Source of the DNA: Escherichia phage Pisces
Reading direction: 5' to 3' (one strand)
DNA length: 39,497 nt
Sequence record: MK903277.1
The notes beneath the pieces were generated by a model. That model made no database searches. It was not told the DNA's origin and saw only the letters and a program-made list of their open reading frames with translations. The translations under genes and the position numbers were made by a program. This document shows, one piece after another, positions 3,261 to 7,334 of this stretch (its first letter is position 1; each line of letters starts with the position of its first letter).

Positions 3261-3330
3261 TAAACTATCACTAAAGGACTCAAGGTCGAAAGACTCTAAG
3301 TCAGGACTGAAGTGAAAGACTTTAGTGATA
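3261..3330 (+). promoter_or_regulatory. Promoter-like element inside a long hairpin upstream of the RNAP gene (R1-like processing site)
   Basis: TAAACTATCACTAAAGG (3261-3277) differs from the phage promoter consensus at -2; TATCACTAAAG (3266-3276) is the exact reverse complement of CTTTAGTGATA (3319-3329). Confidence 0.4.
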
Positions 3331-3356
3331 AGACAACAGTTATAAGGACTTTAAGT

Positions 3357-6038
3357 ATGAGCGTCATCTCAATTGACAAGCACGACTTCTCTGATGTGTC
3401 GAATGCAATCGAGCCATTCAACGTACTGGCTGACCACTACGGTCAGGACCTAGCAGTAAAACAGCTTCAGCTTGAGCATGAGGCGTACACTGAAGGCGAG
3501 CGACGTTTCATCAAGAACCTTGAGCGCCAAGCTGAGCGCGGGGAGCTGGCAGACAATCAGGTCGCCAAGCCACTGATGCAAACTCTGGTCCCGACCATCG
3601 CCAAGGCTGTTCGTGAGTGGCACGAAGGCCCGGACGGTAAGTCCTCGACCTCTCGCCCAAGCGTAGCGTTTACCATGCTGAGCACTGACGAGAAGGCTGT
3701 CAAAGACCGCTCTCTGCGAATCTCTGCTGAGTCTGCTGCGGTCATCATACTGAAAGTCATCCTCAGCAAGCTGGTCAAGCCTGAGGGAATCCCGATAACG
3801 CCGATGGCCTCCGCGATTGGTCGCACACTTGAAGATGAAATCCGCTTCGGTCGCATCCGTGAGCAGGAGCAGGAGCACTTCAAGAAGACCATAGCTGAGA
3901 ACCTGAAGAAACGTGCAGGAGCAAGCTACAAGAAAGCCTACATGCAAGCGGTCGAAGCCTCCATGCTGGAGCAAGGGAAACTGGCTGACGCTTGGGGGAC
4001 TTGGAGTCCGACCGAGGCGGTACACGTAGGCATCAAGATGCTGGAGCTGGTCATCCAGTCCTCGCAACTGGTCGAACTGAAGCGCTACGGTGCAGGTAAC
4101 GCTGCGGCAGACGTCGAGATGGTCCACCTGTCAGACTTCTGGGTCAAGAAGATGTCGCAACGTGGCTTCTCACTGGCTGGCATCGCTCCGGTCTACCAAC
4201 CTTGCGTCGTTCCACCTAAGCCGTGGACCGGGGTCGTGGGTGGTGGGTACTGGGCTAAGGGCCGAAGACCTCTCCCGCTGATTCGCTTAGGGTCCAAGGC
4301 TGCGGTCCAGCGCTACGAAGACGTGTACATGCCCGAAGTCTACGAGGCAGTGAATATCATCCAGCAGACACCTTGGAAGGTGAACAAGAAGGTGCTGGAC
4401 GTGGTGAACATGGTCGAGAAGCTGAACAACACGCCTATCGCTGACATCCCTCAGATGGAACCGATGAAGCCTGAAGACTATGCAGGTGAGACCGAGGAAG
4501 AACTCAAAGCGTGGAAGAAAGCCGCTGCTGGTATCTATCGACGCGAGAAGGCCCGACAGTCCCGCCGTTTGTCCCTGAGCTTCATCGTCGGACAGGCGAA
4601 CAAGTTCTCTCAGTTCAAGGCCATCTGGTTCCCATACAACATGGACTGGCGCGGTCGAGTCTATGCGGTCCCGATGTTCAACCCTCAGGGTAACGACATG
4701 CAGAAGGGTCTGCTGACTCTGGCAGTAGGCAAGCCAATCGGTGCGGATGGCTTCAAGTGGCTGAAGGTCCACGGTGCAAACTGCGCTGGTGTCGATAAAG
4801 TCACCTTCGAGGAGCGCATCAAGTGGGTCGAAGACAACCACGACAACATCCTCGCGGCTGCTAAGAGTCCGATGGATAGCATTGACTGGTGGGGTCAGTT
4901 AGACTCTCCGTTCTGCTTCCTCGCGTTCTGCTTCGAGTATGCTGGAGTCATGCACCACGGGCTGAGCTACTCCTGCTCACTGCCTATCGCGTTCGATGGG
5001 TCCTGCTCTGGGATTCAGCACTTCAGCGCGATGCTTCGTGACCACGTTGGTGGACATGCGGTCAACCTGACGCCAAGCGGTAAGGTCCAAGACATCTACC
5101 GCATTGTGTCCGACCGGGTGGAAGAACAGCTTAAGGAGCTGCTGGTCAACGGTAGTGACAACGAAGTCAAGACCTTCGAGGACAAGAAGACGGGCGAGAT
5201 TACTGAACGTCTGGTCCTTGGAACTCGCGAGCTGGCCCGTCAGTGGCTGACCTACGGGATGTCACGCTCGGTCACTAAACGCTCGGTCATGACTCTGGCC
5301 TATGGGTCGAAGGAATACGGGTTCGCGGACCAAGTGTTTGAGGACACCGTGATGCCAGCGATTGACAGCGGCAAGGGCGCGATGTTCACGGACCCAAGCC
5401 AAGCGTCACGCTTCATGGCTAAGATGATTTGGGATGCGGTAAGCGTGACCGTAGTTGCTGCGGTAGACGCGATGAAGTGGCTGCAAGGCGCTGCTAAACT
5501 GCTGGCTGCTGAGGTCAAGGACAAGAAGACCAAAGAGGTCCTGAAGCCTTGCCTCCCGGTTCACTGGGTCACACCTGATGGCTTCCCGGTCTGGCAGGAG
5601 TACCGCAAGAAAGACACCACACGCCTGAACCTCCTATTCCTTGGGTCGTTCAACCTGCAACCGACAGTCAACAAAGGGTCGAAGAAAGAGCTGGACAAGC
5701 ACAAGCAGGAGTCCGGCATCAGTCCTAACTTCGTACACTCACAGGATGGCAGTCACCTGAGGAAGACTGTAGTCCACACCCACCGCAAGTACGGCGTGAT
5801 GTCCTTCGCAGTGATTCACGATAGCTTCGGGACCATCCCGGCTGACGCTGAGTTCCTGTTCAAAGGCGTCCGTGAGACGATGGTTGAGACCTACCGCGAC
5901 AACGATGTGCTGCAAGACTTCTACGAGCAGTTCGCGGACCAGCTTCACGAGAGCCAGCGCGATAAGTTGCCTGAGCTGCCGAAGCGCGGTAAACTGAACA
6001 TTGAAGACATTCTGTTATCTGACTTTGCATTCGCCTGA
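3357..6038 (+). CDS. Single-subunit DNA-directed RNA polymerase (T7 gene 1 homologue)
   Basis: 893 aa from ATG 3357 (the ORF track's 3312 start is probably too early); strong collinear similarity to T7 RNAP including the specificity-loop region and C-terminal FAFA. Confidence 0.95.
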   Translation: MSVISIDKHDFSDVSNAIEPFNVLADHYGQDLAVKQLQLEHEAYTEGERRFIKNLERQAERGELADNQVAKPLMQTLVPTIAKAVREWHEGPDGKSSTSRPSVAFTMLSTDEKAVKDRSLRISAESAAVIILKVILSKLVKPEGIPITPMASAIGRTLEDEIRFGRIREQEQEHFKKTIAENLKKRAGASYKKAYMQAVEASMLEQGKLADAWGTWSPTEAVHVGIKMLELVIQSSQLVELKRYGAGNAAADVEMVHLSDFWVKKMSQRGFSLAGIAPVYQPCVVPPKPWTGVVGGGYWAKGRRPLPLIRLGSKAAVQRYEDVYMPEVYEAVNIIQQTPWKVNKKVLDVVNMVEKLNNTPIADIPQMEPMKPEDYAGETEEELKAWKKAAAGIYRREKARQSRRLSLSFIVGQANKFSQFKAIWFPYNMDWRGRVYAVPMFNPQGNDMQKGLLTLAVGKPIGADGFKWLKVHGANCAGVDKVTFEERIKWVEDNHDNILAAAKSPMDSIDWWGQLDSPFCFLAFCFEYAGVMHHGLSYSCSLPIAFDGSCSGIQHFSAMLRDHVGGHAVNLTPSGKVQDIYRIVSDRVEEQLKELLVNGSDNEVKTFEDKKTGEITERLVLGTRELARQWLTYGMSRSVTKRSVMTLAYGSKEYGFADQVFEDTVMPAIDSGKGAMFTDPSQASRFMAKMIWDAVSVTVVAAVDAMKWLQGAAKLLAAEVKDKKTKEVLKPCLPVHWVTPDGFPVWQEYRKKDTTRLNLLFLGSFNLQPTVNKGSKKELDKHKQESGISPNFVHSQDGSHLRKTVVHTHRKYGVMSFAVIHDSFGTIPADAEFLFKGVRETMVETYRDNDVLQDFYEQFADQLHESQRDKLPELPKRGKLNIEDILLSDFAFA

Positions 6039-6051
6039 GGAGGCACTAACT

Positions 6052-6252
6052 ATGAAATTCGCACACAAGCAAACTGGCGTTAAAGGCGGTACTCAAATCG
6101 TGACCGTGACCGAGCATAACGGTAAGGGTCTGGTGAAGACTACGGTAATCCCAACCGAGATGTCAAAACAGCTTAATGTTCCCTTCAAATGGCTGGTGCA
6201 GCAGGTCGAACAGGCCCACGAACAGGCCCTAACCGAGGCGGCAACGAAATGA
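6052..6252 (+). CDS. Hypothetical protein (66 aa), T3 gene 1.05 position
   Basis: Strong SD GAGGAGG 8 nt upstream of ATG 6052; the ORF track's start at 6001 lies inside the RNAP gene. Confidence 0.5.
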   Translation: MKFAHKQTGVKGGTQIVTVTEHNGKGLVKTTVIPTEMSKQLNVPFKWLVQQVEQAHEQALTEAATK

Positions 6253-6330
6253 CAGACCTTAAGTGGCTGGGAGTGTGGCTCCTAGCTTTAGCAGTTTACA
6301 CTTTAATCCAACGCAGAAGAGGTTAACCAT

Positions 6331-6798
6331 ATGTTCGGTAAGTCAAAACTTAAAGCACAAATCAAAGAGTTGAGCGTGAAGGCAGCATACTTGGAGCGAG
6401 CCGTAGCGGTCCGGGACAAGGACAACGAGCGGCTGAAGGATAAACTTGCTGAGTCAGAGCGCAAGCGCCTAACGCCACCTGAGCCTGTCACTGTGAAGCG
6501 TATGGTTGGCCTGAAGTTCCGAGCGCTGTTCAATGGTCTCTACCAGCCGACTGAGTTCAAGACCGGGCCGGGACCTTGCGGTAAGACAGTGACTCACTTC
6601 ACCACGAGTCGGACCGAGCGGGAGCTGACCATCCACCAGCACCACACGGATGGCTCGCAGAAGGACTTCGAGTATCGACTGAGCGACATCGACGGTCGCA
6701 TCCAGTATGACTACGAGAACGTGAAGGTCTACGGAGAAGAGGCAGAACGTGAGCGAGCACTTCAGGCGATGGTGCGATTCCGACCTCGCGTCGCCTAA
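6331..6798 (+). CDS. Hypothetical protein with N-terminal coiled-coil (155 aa)
   Basis: SD GAAGAGG upstream; N-terminal 50 aa heptad-like and K/E/R-rich; not present at this position in T7. Confidence 0.5.
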   Translation: MFGKSKLKAQIKELSVKAAYLERAVAVRDKDNERLKDKLAESERKRLTPPEPVTVKRMVGLKFRALFNGLYQPTEFKTGPGPCGKTVTHFTTSRTERELTIHQHHTDGSQKDFEYRLSDIDGRIQYDYENVKVYGEEAERERALQAMVRFRPRVA

Positions 6799-6815
6799 AC
6801 TATCACTATAGGATT
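6796..6815 (+). promoter_or_regulatory. Phage RNAP promoter (phi1.1-like)
   Basis: TAAACTATCACTATAGGATT matches the repeated promoter consensus. Confidence 0.75.
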
Positions 6816-6862
6816 AGACTCAAGGTCATGACTCAAAGTCGTGGCCTTCATGATTAACCCTA
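6816..6862 (+). promoter_or_regulatory. Putative RNase III processing hairpin (R1.1-like)
   Basis: AGACTCAAGGTCATGAC...GTCGTGGCCTTCATGATTAA; imperfect stem with G-U wobbles; one of a four-member motif family. Confidence 0.45.
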
Positions 6863-6886
6863 ACTCATTCAATCAGGAGCTACACC

Positions 6887-7066
6887 ATGTATCAGAACAC
6901 CATTAACTTCGAGCGCATCCGTGAACGTCAGCAGACTGAAGGCTACATTCCTAAGGGCCGCAAGCTGAACAAGCCTAAACGTGGCGGTGGCGTGAAGGGT
7001 GCTTTCCGTAACGCTGAGGGCAAAGACTCTCTGGTCAACCAAGAGAAGTATTTCGTAGGAGCGTAA
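6887..7066 (+). CDS. Gene 1.1-like small basic protein (59 aa)
   Basis: Not in the ORF track (<60 aa); SD AGGAG upstream; GRKLNKPKR resembles T7 gp1.1 GRKLNKTKR. Confidence 0.55.
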   Translation: MYQNTINFERIRERQQTEGYIPKGRKLNKPKRGGGVKGAFRNAEGKDSLVNQEKYFVGA

Positions 7067-7070
7067 GACG

Positions 7071-7334
7071 ATGGGTAGACTTTACGGTGGAAACCTTAAC
7101 GCTTTCAAAGCGGCCTGTAACAGACTGTATCAGTTAGACTTCGCGGTCATAGCTGATGACTGGCGTGATGCACACCTCAGGCAGGAGTGTATGAGACTCA
7201 GGGTCGAAGACCGCGCTGGCAACATATTCGCGCTTGAGACTTTCAGTCACTACGATGAAGACGTTCTGTTCAATACCGCAACCTCATTCCTTAACGGTCT
7301 CGCTGACCAACTCGACACATGGAGCAAAGCATAA
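7071..7334 (+). CDS. Gene 1.2 homologue, inhibitor of host dGTP triphosphohydrolase
   Basis: 87 aa; MGRLYGGNLNAFKAA...DEDVLFN closely parallels T7 gp1.2 MGRLYSGNLAAFKAA...DEDVLFN. Confidence 0.85.
   Translation: MGRLYGGNLNAFKAACNRLYQLDFAVIADDWRDAHLRQECMRLRVEDRAGNIFALETFSHYDEDVLFNTATSFLNGLADQLDTWSKA

What the first reader, a model, noticed from the sequence alone, without database searches (positions are those of the whole stretch)
6052..6798. Two inserted genes between the polymerase and gene 1.1, where T7 has only promoters and its replication origin
In T7 the interval after gene 1 holds the phi1.1A/B promoters and the primary origin and then runs directly into gene 1.1. Here it holds a 66-aa ORF (strong SD) and a 155-aa ORF whose N-terminal ~50 residues form a heptad-like coiled coil (KLKAQIKELSVKAAYLERAVAVRDKDNERLKDKLAESERKRL) followed by a domain with conserved Gly/Pro/Cys/His (GPGPCGKT...HQHH). 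The first phage promoter after the polymerase is displaced to 6796. T3 carries a small gene 1.05 at this position, so the 66-aa ORF may be its counterpart; the 155-aa ORF has no obvious equivalent.
Basis: partly seen in the sequence, partly recalled or inferred. Interest (0 to 1): 0.5.

Follow-up and report, generated by a model that had tools for sequence, protein, structure and literature searches.

The report
T3-type gene 1.05 cassette in Kayfunavirus
The gap between the RNA polymerase gene and gene 1.1 of this T7-like phage (Escherichia phage Pisces) holds three small early genes, and the largest belongs to the widespread but functionally unstudied T3 "gene 1.05" family, so the finding is a catalogued accessory gene rather than a new kind of element.

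Summary
The window is Escherichia phage Pisces, a Kayfunavirus. Both ORFs are real, at the stated coordinates and under purifying selection. There is no phage promoter between gene 1 and position 6794.

The 155-aa ORF is the T3 gene 1.05 homologue (Pfam PF25755, 92.6 bits, E 1.4e-26, residues 58-128). Its EcoDS1 orthologue is already labelled gp1.05. The 66-aa ORF is a Kayfunavirus-only orphan (PHROG 8082).

A third gene was missed: a 25-aa single-pass membrane peptide (6249-6326), conserved across the genus (pN/pS 0.26).

The promoter at 6798 is the ordinary phi1.1 promoter. What is missing is the T3-type phi1.05 promoter and its AT-rich origin spacer.

gp1.05 is modelled as a long N-terminal helix plus a six-strand beta domain with no significant match among solved structures. 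About half of the long family members carry an N-terminal membrane helix.

Within Kayfunavirus, gene 1.05 is a precise presence/absence cassette. K1F and about 58% of sampled records lack it. Its helix is mosaic.

Function is unknown. My best guess is a dispensable early host-interaction protein. The finding is ordinary to moderately interesting.

The parts
3263..3278 (+). Phage-type promoter core directly upstream of gene 1. It is the only phage promoter that can drive the 6052-6798 genes.
   Evidence: Pattern search, 1 mismatch. The same site is present upstream of the RNAP gene in Hafnia phage yong1.
3357..6038 (+). Gene 1, the T7-type RNA polymerase (893 aa counted from MSVISIDK).
   Evidence: ORF list. 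Annotated relatives.
6038..6044 (+). Shine-Dalgarno sequence GAGGAGG of the 66-aa ORF. It overlaps the gene 1 stop codon.
   Evidence: Read directly from the sequence.
6052..6252 (+). ORF-A: a 66-aa basic protein (pI 9.5) specific to Kayfunavirus (PHROG 8082), function unknown.
   Evidence: tblastn finds 220 phage records, all Kayfunavirus-like. About 156 homologues of 65-84 aa, no Pfam hit. pN/pS 0.24.
6249..6326 (+). Missed 25-aa ORF, MTDLKWLGVWLLALAVYTLIQRRRG: a single membrane helix followed by a basic tail. Its start overlaps the ORF-A stop (ATGA), and it ends 4 nt before the gene 1.05 ATG.
   Evidence: Intact in 17 of 17 distinct relatives. pN/pS is 0.26 in frame against 1.31 and 0.84 off frame, and one relative uses a GTG start. 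The divergent Kc166A version keeps the same length and layout. Full-length tblastn matches in 82 records. Kept in K1F, which lacks gene 1.05.
6331..6798 (+). Gene 1.05 homologue, 155 aa, identical to CPT_Pisces_008.
   Evidence: PF25755 E 1.4e-26, phrog_8103 E 1.9e-59. 100% match to the Pisces protein. Orthologue labelled gp1.05 in EcoDS1.
6334..6471 (+). N-terminal long helix of gp1.05 (aa 2-47), a putative coiled-coil stalk and a mosaic module.
   Evidence: AlphaFold2 model. At least 6 helix types, no more than 44% identical to each other, joined to C-terminal parts 86-100% identical.
6487..6729 (+). Six-strand antiparallel beta domain of gp1.05 (aa 53-133). It contains the Pfam match (aa 58-128) and the conserved EFK-G-G-CGK / DG--K-F-Y / D--GRI motifs.
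6733..6777 (+). C-terminal helix of gp1.05 (aa 135-149), specific to the Kayfunavirus-type proteins.
6794..6816 (+). phi1.1-type phage promoter (perfect 16-nt core at 6798-6813) overlapping the gene 1.05 stop codon.
   Evidence: Same position relative to gene 1.05 in T3, BA14, EcoDS1 and all Kayfunavirus loci fetched.
6822..6848 (+). Stable RNA hairpin just after the promoter start site, the positional equivalent of the R1.1 RNase III site.
   Evidence: Fold of 6811-6890: -21.7 kcal/mol, z -2.97, 0 of 200 shuffles as stable. T3 annotation. No Rfam match.
6887..7066 (+). Gene 1.1 (59 aa).
   Evidence: PF08200 E 6.2e-11.
7071..7334 (+). Gene 1.2, dGTPase inhibitor (87 aa).
   Evidence: PF10922 E 2.1e-35.

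Best explanation
The interval 6052-6798 is a tightly packed, translationally coupled block of three small genes. It has no promoter of its own, so it is transcribed as an extension of the gene 1 message. That transcription would come from host RNA polymerase early and from the phage promoter at 3263 later. The three genes are:
1. ORF-A, a 66-aa protein found only in Kayfunavirus.
2. A 25-aa single-pass inner-membrane peptide.
3. A member of the T3 gene 1.05 family (PF25755).

gp1.05 is a two-module protein: an interchangeable N-terminal helical (coiled-coil) stalk, then a conserved small all-beta domain that is the functional core of the family.

It is a dispensable accessory gene. Within Kayfunavirus it is either present or cleanly absent between the 25-aa ORF's stop codon and the phi1.1 promoter.

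The mechanism I commit to is inferred, not shown. The beta domain binds a cytoplasmic host or phage component. The stalk oligomerises the protein. In many relatives an N-terminal membrane helix holds the protein at the cytoplasmic face of the inner membrane. On this reading gp1.05 is an early host-interaction, possibly counter-defence, factor rather than a housekeeping replication protein.
For: Identity:
- PF25755 at 92.6 bits against a cut-off of 27, and phrog_8103.
- T3 gene 1.05 aligned by tblastn.
- EcoDS1 orthologue named gp1.05.

Layout:
- No phage promoter between 3263 and 6798.
- No sigma-70-like promoter or terminator-like site in 5900-7100.
- ATGA overlap and a 4-nt spacer between the ORFs.

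All three genes are under purifying selection.

Structure: helix 2-47, six-strand domain 53-133, pLDDT 85.

Family:
- 153 representative clusters. 85 are stand-alone domains and 62 are long forms, 47 of which have an N-terminal membrane helix.
- In a slightly larger set that also includes the Berlinvirus-type homologues from the BA14 search, 71 of 72 membrane-helix forms have basic residues only after the helix. That predicts an N-out, C-in topology, so the stalk and domain would be cytoplasmic.

Accessory status:
- K1F lacks the gene, with a clean junction.
- In an evenly spaced sample of 60 of 215 records, 35 have the K1F-type junction, 13 have the gene, and 12 gave half matches, several of which are phages shown in other calls to carry the gene.

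Mosaic stalk: a C-terminal part 100% identical to the window's is joined to a helix only 35% identical.

Phage-restricted:
- One locus among the genomes of 185,579 bacterial and archaeal species, on a contig with phage-type genes.
- All significant structural neighbours among viral proteins are uncharacterised Autographiviridae proteins.
Against: - No experimental or literature information on function exists for any family member in the searchable library.
- There is no match in the PADLOC models of defence-system proteins or in NCBIfam, so the host-interaction role rests only on the usual correlates: early position, dispensability, mosaicism and restriction to phages.
- The domain's pI ranges from 4.4 to 10.1 across the family, which argues against one simple electrostatic binding mode.
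- Oligomerisation through the helix is not demonstrated.
- The Pisces protein itself has no membrane helix.
Confidence: 0.6

Rival explanations
1. Two-component membrane complex. The 25-aa membrane peptide and the helix-plus-domain protein are the two halves of a split Berlinvirus-type protein (membrane helix, coiled coil, 1.05 domain). The peptide would anchor gp1.05 to the inner membrane in trans.
For: - The peptide ORF ends 4-5 nt before the gene 1.05 ATG in every 1.05+ Kayfunavirus examined.
- It has the same layout as the N-terminal anchors of the long forms: 2-3 residues, a hydrophobic helix, then basic residues.
- Kayfunavirus gp1.05 is one of the few long forms that lacks its own membrane helix.
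Against: - The peptide ORF is kept intact in phages that lack gene 1.05, and K1F and EcoDS1 encode the identical peptide with and without the gene.
- Elunavirus Stepyanka has a helix-plus-domain form with no membrane helix and no upstream peptide ORF.
- The reading-frame relation between the two ORFs is not conserved, so no frameshift fusion is possible.
Confidence: 0.15
2. Nucleic-acid-binding small beta-barrel. The 1.05 domain is an Sm/Hfq/WYL-like barrel that binds RNA or single-stranded DNA, for example phage early transcripts or replication intermediates.
For: - Like Sm proteins, the domain follows an N-terminal helix.
- The Pisces protein is basic: pI 9.6, net charge +8.
Against: - There is no sequence similarity to Sm or WYL families.
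- Domain pI is not conserved across the family, ranging from 4.4 to 10.1.
Confidence: 0.15
3. Replication-origin accessory protein. gp1.05 acts at the primary origin, which in T3 overlaps the start of gene 1.05.
For: - The T3 record places the primary origin (5682-5758) between the phi1.05 promoter and the first codons of gene 1.05.
- Elunavirus has the same arrangement: a promoter, an AT-rich spacer, then gene 1.05.
Against: - In Pisces and all Kayfunavirus loci fetched, the promoter and AT-rich spacer are absent upstream of gene 1.05.
- T7 and more than half of the sampled Kayfunavirus records replicate without the gene.
- Homologues lie upstream of the polymerase gene, or elsewhere in the early region, in other subfamilies.
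Confidence: 0.07
4. The ORFs are non-functional leftovers, and the 25-aa ORF is conserved only because it carries the ribosome-binding site of gene 1.05.
For: - Gene 1.05 is dispensable in nature.
- The last codons of the 25-aa ORF (AGAAGAGGT) double as the Shine-Dalgarno sequence of gene 1.05.
Against: - In-frame pN/pS is about 0.25 for ORF-A and for the 25-aa ORF, against 0.8-1.9 off frame, with no stop codons in 17 sequences.
- 54 invariant columns in gp1.05 across 25 proteins.
- The 25-aa ORF stays intact where gene 1.05, and therefore the need for its ribosome-binding site, is absent.
Confidence: 0.03

Closest known systems
Bacteriophage T3 gene 1.05 protein (Pfam PF25755 Phage_T3_1_05; PHROG 8103/6379)
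   Same: - The C-terminal beta domain matches the family model end to end (profile positions 2-73 of 73).
- It shares the conserved EFK-G-G-CGK / DG--K-F-Y / D--GRI motifs.
- It sits at the same locus between gene 1 and gene 1.1.
- The phi1.1 promoter overlaps its 3' end and an RNase III-type hairpin follows.
   Different: - The T3 protein is 90 aa, essentially the domain alone. Pisces adds a 47-residue N-terminal helix and a C-terminal helix.
- T3 has its own phi1.05 promoter and the primary origin immediately upstream. Pisces has two further ORFs there instead and no promoter.
- Only about 34% identity.
Berlinvirus / KP32-type 'fusion protein' gp1.05 (for example BA14 gp1.05, 185 aa)
   Same: An N-terminal helical coiled-coil region followed by the same C-terminal domain, at the same locus.
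   Different: - These proteins start with a membrane helix and have a coiled coil about twice as long.
- Pisces gp1.05 has no membrane helix, but a separate 25-aa membrane peptide gene lies just upstream.
EcoDS1 gp1.05 (YP_002003744) and other Kayfunavirus orthologues
   Same: Orthologues of 155-160 aa, 71-95% identical among the listed hits and down to about 50% in SH5 and Kc166A, with the same flanking genes and promoter.
   Different: - The N-terminal helix differs between lineages through module exchange.
- K1F and many relatives lack the gene altogether.
Sm/Hfq-like and WYL small beta-barrels
   Same: A helix followed by a bent antiparallel beta sheet of similar size. These are the most frequent weak structural neighbours.

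Membership tests
T3 gene 1.05 family (PF25755) | Sequence match to the family profile above the curated threshold. | tested here: met
   92.6 bits against a cut-off of 27, E 1.4e-26, residues 58-128 covering profile positions 2-73 of 73. Precomputed PF25755 on all close homologues.
T3 gene 1.05 family (PF25755) | Conserved core motifs shared with distant members (EFK-G-G-CGK-V, Q, DG--K-F-Y, D--GRI). | tested here: met
   15 invariant and 7 nearly invariant columns in the alignment with Berlinvirus-type proteins only 21-27% identical to the window protein. The same motifs appear in T3, phi80-18 g04 and PCS4 gpp7.
T3 gene 1.05 family (PF25755) | Locus between gene 1 and gene 1.1, with the phi1.1 promoter at its 3' end. 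| tested here: met
T3 gene 1.05 family (PF25755) | Own phi1.05 promoter and AT-rich primary origin directly upstream (the T3, BA14 and Elunavirus layout). | tested here: not met
   No promoter match between 3263 and 6798. No AT-rich spacer: the interval is filled by ORF-A and the 25-aa ORF. This is a feature of the locus, not of the protein family.
T3 gene 1.05 family (PF25755) | Shared biochemical function. | not testable with these tools
   No function is described for any member.
Membrane-anchored long-form gp1.05 (Berlinvirus type) | N-terminal membrane helix on the same polypeptide. | tested here: not met
   No hydrophobic window in gp1.05: in the representative set only sequences with a membrane helix reach Kyte-Doolittle 1.6 or more, and the Kayfunavirus forms score at most about 0.6. 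A membrane helix is encoded separately at 6249-6326.
Membrane-anchored long-form gp1.05 (Berlinvirus type) | Coiled-coil region between the anchor and the domain. | tested here: inconclusive
   Continuous helix 2-47 in the model. Hydrophobic residues at 8 of 13 a/d positions. Only sub-threshold hits to coiled-coil families. Oligomeric state not testable here.
Sm/Hfq/WYL-like small beta-barrel | Significant structural superposition on solved members. | tested here: inconclusive
T7 gp1.1 (label given to the ORF-A orthologue in EcoDS1 and Dev2) | Match to PF08200 Phage_1_1. | tested here: not met
   ORF-A has no Pfam hit at E up to 1, whereas the true gene 1.1 at 6887-7066 matches PF08200 at E 6.2e-11.
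'Microtubule-binding protein' (label on some gp1.05 orthologues; PF13851 GAS) | Match to PF13851 above threshold. | tested here: not met
   11 bits against a cut-off of 32.3, E 0.28, confined to the helix. This is a generic coiled-coil artefact.
DUF2842 (label on the 25-aa ORF in phage IMM-002) | Match to the Pfam family. | tested here: not met
   No Pfam family at E up to 1 for the 25-aa peptide. The label is seen.

The most novel reading that the evidence does not exclude
PF25755 is a previously unrecognised small beta-barrel effector domain. On this reading, Autographiviridae hold it at the cytoplasmic face of the inner membrane on an exchangeable coiled-coil stalk, where it neutralises a membrane-associated host factor or defence system. 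In Kayfunavirus the anchor would be supplied in trans by a conserved 25-aa microprotein that nearly all annotations miss. The rapid swapping of stalks and the repeated loss of the gene would then reflect an arms race.
Probability: 0.1. Interest if true: 0.6.

Novelty: new member of a known kind. Interest (0 to 1): 0.3.

Why it matters
It corrects a plausible but reversed homology call. The supposedly equivalent-less ORF is a catalogued and widespread gene: 153 clusters at 50% identity, found almost only in Autographiviridae.

The useful by-products are these:
- A genus-wide 25-aa membrane-peptide gene, annotated as a separate gene in only one of the Kayfunavirus records examined here (IMM-002, under an unsupported DUF2842 label).
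- Natural 1.05+ and 1.05- phages that otherwise share the same locus, which gives a ready-made comparison for finding the gene's function.
- An architectural description of an unstudied early-gene family: stand-alone domain, helix plus domain, or membrane helix plus coiled coil plus domain.
- The observation that Kayfunavirus lacks the T7/T3-type promoter-plus-AT-rich origin after gene 1, so its primary origin must be organised differently.

Tried and rejected
- **AFDB50 fold search.** The library was not available on the machine.
- **Metal-binding reading of 'GPGPCGK...HQHH'.** Rejected. There is one conserved Cys, and the histidines are conserved only within the genus.
- **Programmed frameshift joining the 25-aa ORF to gene 1.05.** Rejected. 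The frame relation differs among loci.
- **Amphipathic membrane-binding N-terminus in T3-like and Kayfunavirus forms.** Hydrophobic moments are no better than shuffles.
- **ORF-A as a paralogue of the extra 76-aa ORF of EcoDS1.** No alignment.
- **Origin-like features.** There are no direct or inverted repeats in 5950-7100. The only AT-rich window in the interval (6295-6354, 33% GC) is no richer than about ten others across the genome.
- **Database searches with no informative result.**
  - Rfam: nothing.
  - PADLOC: nothing.
  - NCBIfam: one sub-threshold chance hit.
  - PDB sequence searches: no PDB hit for ORF-A, and only sub-threshold hits for gp1.05 and its profile, almost all coiled-coil noise.
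- **Literature.**
  - Searches for gp1.05, PF25755 and the motif peptides found only genome-annotation tables.
  - The phiYeO3-12 non-essential-gene paper and genome paper are not held.
  - The accessory-gene screen preprint does not contain this family.

Full report
**What the window is.** The 155-aa protein is 100% identical to CPT_Pisces_008 of Escherichia phage Pisces. The published Pisces genome is 39,497 bp, the length of the window. The nearest relatives by DNA are Kayfunavirus phages at 76-92% identity over 5900-7100.

**Checking the observation.**
- The RNA polymerase gene ends at 6038.
- A 66-aa ORF (ORF-A, 6052-6252) follows, with GAGGAGG 7 nt upstream of its ATG. The 155-aa ORF is at 6331-6798.
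- Both are conserved genes.
  - ORF-A has pN/pS 0.24 in frame against 1.8 and 1.9 off frame.
  - ORF-A has about 156 homologues of essentially the same length.
  - The 155-aa ORF has 240 homologues.
- Matches to the phage promoter core AACTATCACTATAGGA occur 12 times in the genome, against 0.22 expected. They include 3263 and 6798, with none between them.
- T7 has only phi1.1A and phi1.1B in a 184-bp gap at this position.
- So the description is correct. It misses one thing: a 25-aa ORF at 6249-6326.

**Identity of the 155-aa ORF.**
- Residues 58-128 match Pfam PF25755 (Enterobacteria phage T3 gene 1.05 protein) at 92.6 bits against a threshold of 27. The whole protein matches phrog_8103.
- tblastn aligns residues 55-148 to T3 gene 1.05 at 34% identity. 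The EcoDS1 orthologue, 82% identical, is annotated gp1.05.
- ORF-A has no Pfam match. Its homologues are confined to Kayfunavirus-like genomes.
- Existing labels are not supported by the profile searches. These are 'gp1.1' for ORF-A, 'microtubule-binding protein' for gp1.05 and 'DUF2842' for the 25-aa ORF.

**Locus comparison.**
- In T3, the phi1.05 promoter and the primary origin lie directly after gene 1. The origin overlaps the first codons of gene 1.05. The phi1.1 promoter overlaps the gene's end, and the R1.1 RNase III site follows.
- BA14 has the same promoter arrangement, and Elunavirus Stepyanka has a promoter and an AT-rich spacer before its gene 1.05.
- Pisces keeps the downstream half: the promoter at 6794-6816 overlapping the stop codon, and a stable hairpin at 6822-6848 (z -2.97).
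- Pisces replaces the upstream promoter and spacer with ORF-A and the 25-aa ORF. All fetched Kayfunavirus loci have a promoter match in this interval only at the end of gene 1.05.
- The promoter at 6798 is therefore not displaced. What is absent is phi1.05 and the origin-type spacer.
- I found no repeats, no standout AT-rich segment and no Rfam element in the interval. The origin cannot be placed from sequence.
- The three ORFs have no promoter of their own. No convincing terminator lies upstream. By analogy with the T7 early operon, they are read as an extension of the gene 1 transcript. This is an inference.

**The missed 25-aa gene.**
- MTDLKWLGVWLLALAVYTLIQRRRG starts with an ATGA overlap on the ORF-A stop and ends 4 nt before the gene 1.05 ATG.
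- It is intact in all 17 distinct relatives examined, once with a GTG start.
- pN/pS is 0.26 in frame against 1.31 and 0.84 off frame. Variable sites by codon position are 11, 7 and 17.
- The divergent Kosakonia phage Kc166A encodes MSDSLWLVIWLALLVVYIIRQRRRG, with the same length and layout.
- tblastn finds full-length copies in 82 records, all but two carrying enterobacterial or Kayfunavirus names.
- Its frame relative to gene 1.05 differs among loci, so it is a separate gene and not a frameshift extension.

**Anatomy of gp1.05.**
- AlphaFold2 (28-sequence alignment, mean pLDDT 85) gives three elements. They are a helix at 2-47, six antiparallel strands at 53-133 and a helix at 135-149. A domain-only model agrees.
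- Against predicted viral structures, the 17 significant hits are uncharacterised Autographiviridae proteins, apart from one unnamed entry. They include phiSG-JL2 gp1.05 and the KP32 'fusion protein'.
- The conserved residues are G79, G81, C83, G84, K85, Q103, D107, G108, K111, F113, Y115, D119, G122 and R123. The histidines are not conserved outside the genus.

**The family.**
- A profile search of 1.84 billion representative proteins finds 153 clusters.
- Of the 147 newly returned sequences examined, 85 are short stand-alone domains (52-129 aa, mostly 75-100) and 62 are long forms (130 aa or more). 47 of the long forms begin with a hydrophobic helix.
- In a slightly larger set that also includes the Berlinvirus-type homologues from the BA14 search, 71 of 72 membrane-helix forms carry basic residues only after the helix, which starts on average 2.3 residues from the N-terminus. 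That predicts a cytoplasmic stalk and domain. The 25-aa peptide has the same layout.
- The domain also occurs just upstream of the polymerase gene in a Pseudomonas Pifdecavirus and in the early region of Yersinia phage phi80-18.
- Only one locus turned up among the genomes of 185,579 bacterial and archaeal species, on a contig with phage-type genes.

**Accessory status and mosaicism.**
- The type species K1F has ORF-A and the 25-aa ORF but no gene 1.05. The peptide's stop codon runs straight into the promoter (GGTTAACCTAAACTATCAC). Pisces has GGTTAACCATATG, then 468 nt, then GTCGCCTAAACTATCAC.
- In an evenly spaced sample of 60 of the 215 records that match the K1F junction:
  - 35 show the uninterrupted junction, so the gene is absent.
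  - 13 show the two halves about 565 nt apart, so the gene is present.
  - 12 show a half match, and several of these are phages shown in other calls to carry the gene.
- K1F (without the gene) and EcoDS1 (with it) encode the identical 25-aa peptide.
- Among Kayfunavirus gp1.05 proteins, at least six N-terminal helix types, no more than 44% identical to each other, are joined to C-terminal parts 86-100% identical. One protein is 100% identical to Pisces after residue 55 and 35% identical before it. That pattern points to module exchange rather than gradual divergence.

**Interpretation.**
- Shown:
  - gene identity and family membership;
  - three conserved coding ORFs;
  - absence of a local promoter;
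  - the predicted two-module fold;
  - the presence/absence polymorphism;
  - restriction to phages.
- Inferred:
  - early co-expression with gene 1;
  - oligomerisation through the helix;
  - a binding role for the beta domain;
  - a host-interaction or counter-defence purpose.
- No publication in the searchable library assigns a function to any member.
- The attractive idea that the peptide is the detached membrane anchor of gp1.05 is weakened because the peptide persists unchanged where gene 1.05 is absent. It is not excluded.

**Verdict.** It is a catalogued but uncharacterised accessory gene family in a genus-specific setting. Novelty is low to moderate.

Noticed in passing
window 3263-3278 (and L002 870-885): A phage-type promoter sits about 80 nt upstream of the RNA polymerase gene and is followed by an AT-rich leader (60-nt window 3315-3374 is 32% GC). 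It would give the polymerase positive feedback on its own gene. It is also a candidate promoter-plus-AT-rich origin. No such promoter is annotated within the ~850 bp upstream of gene 1 in the EcoDS1 record that was fetched; the stretch directly upstream of gene 1 in T7 and T3 was not fetched.
   Followed up: partly
window 7071-7334; loci L001, L003, L007, L010, L012 at the equivalent position: The slot after gene 1.1 is mosaic. Relatives carry at least four other, dissimilar-looking small proteins where Pisces has the PF10922 gp1.2 dGTPase inhibitor. Examples are a 95-aa MGMFSRAHSGNLNTL..., an 83-aa MSKRWLFDASPSQW..., an 86-91-aa M(N/T)HYEL... and a 75-aa MFEGSLTDQMHL.... In the fetched annotations the 95-aa SFPH2 type and the 83-aa EcoDS1 type are both labelled dGTPase inhibitor.
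   Followed up: no
L003 966-1196; L012 967-1197: EcoDS1 and one IMG/VR relative carry an additional 76-aa ORF between gene 1 and ORF-A. It has no detectable similarity to ORF-A.
   Followed up: partly
window 6052-6252 versus L003, L012, L015, L018, L027: ORF-A comes in two C-terminal versions: 66 aa ending ...VEQAHEQALTEAATK, and 71 aa ending ...VESSHEKFLKDAVSKLEQTK. The difference includes a 15-nt indel. A third, much more divergent allele (about 47-53% identity) occurs in GA2A and the Salmonella ST phages.
   Followed up: no
L027 3640-3830 (K1F NC_007456): In the K1F reference record gene 1.1 is unannotated. It appears interrupted by a 1-nt insertion relative to Pisces (CAGACTTGAAGG against CAGACTGAAGG), which leaves only a GTG-initiated 48-aa ORF. 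This could be a sequencing error or a real frameshift.
   Followed up: no
phage records: Several Kayfunavirus-like genomes are deposited under implausible host names. Examples are Staphylococcus phage MBBL139, Enterococcus phage EFA-1 and Acinetobacter phage vB_Aba_01KA. RefSeq also labels the T7-type polymerase 'N4-like RNA polymerase'. These are probably annotation or contamination problems.
   Followed up: no
L026 3923-4180 (Sphingobium sp. CCH11-B1 contig NZ_LSJY01000082): This is the only bacterial-genome hit for the 1.05 domain. It is a stand-alone 85-aa copy on a 19-kb contig with phage-type genes, including a DNA polymerase I-like fragment and a possible 5'-3' exonuclease (judged by eye from the translations, not tested against any family library). 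It is probably a phage contig or a prophage remnant.
   Followed up: partly
L020 (IMM-002 NC_048071) 1034-1230: The IMM-002 record annotates two minus-strand ORFs ('metal resistance protein' and a hypothetical protein) inside the ORF-A / 25-aa ORF region of an otherwise single-strand genome. They are almost certainly over-calls. The same record is the only one seen that annotates the 25-aa ORF.
   Followed up: no
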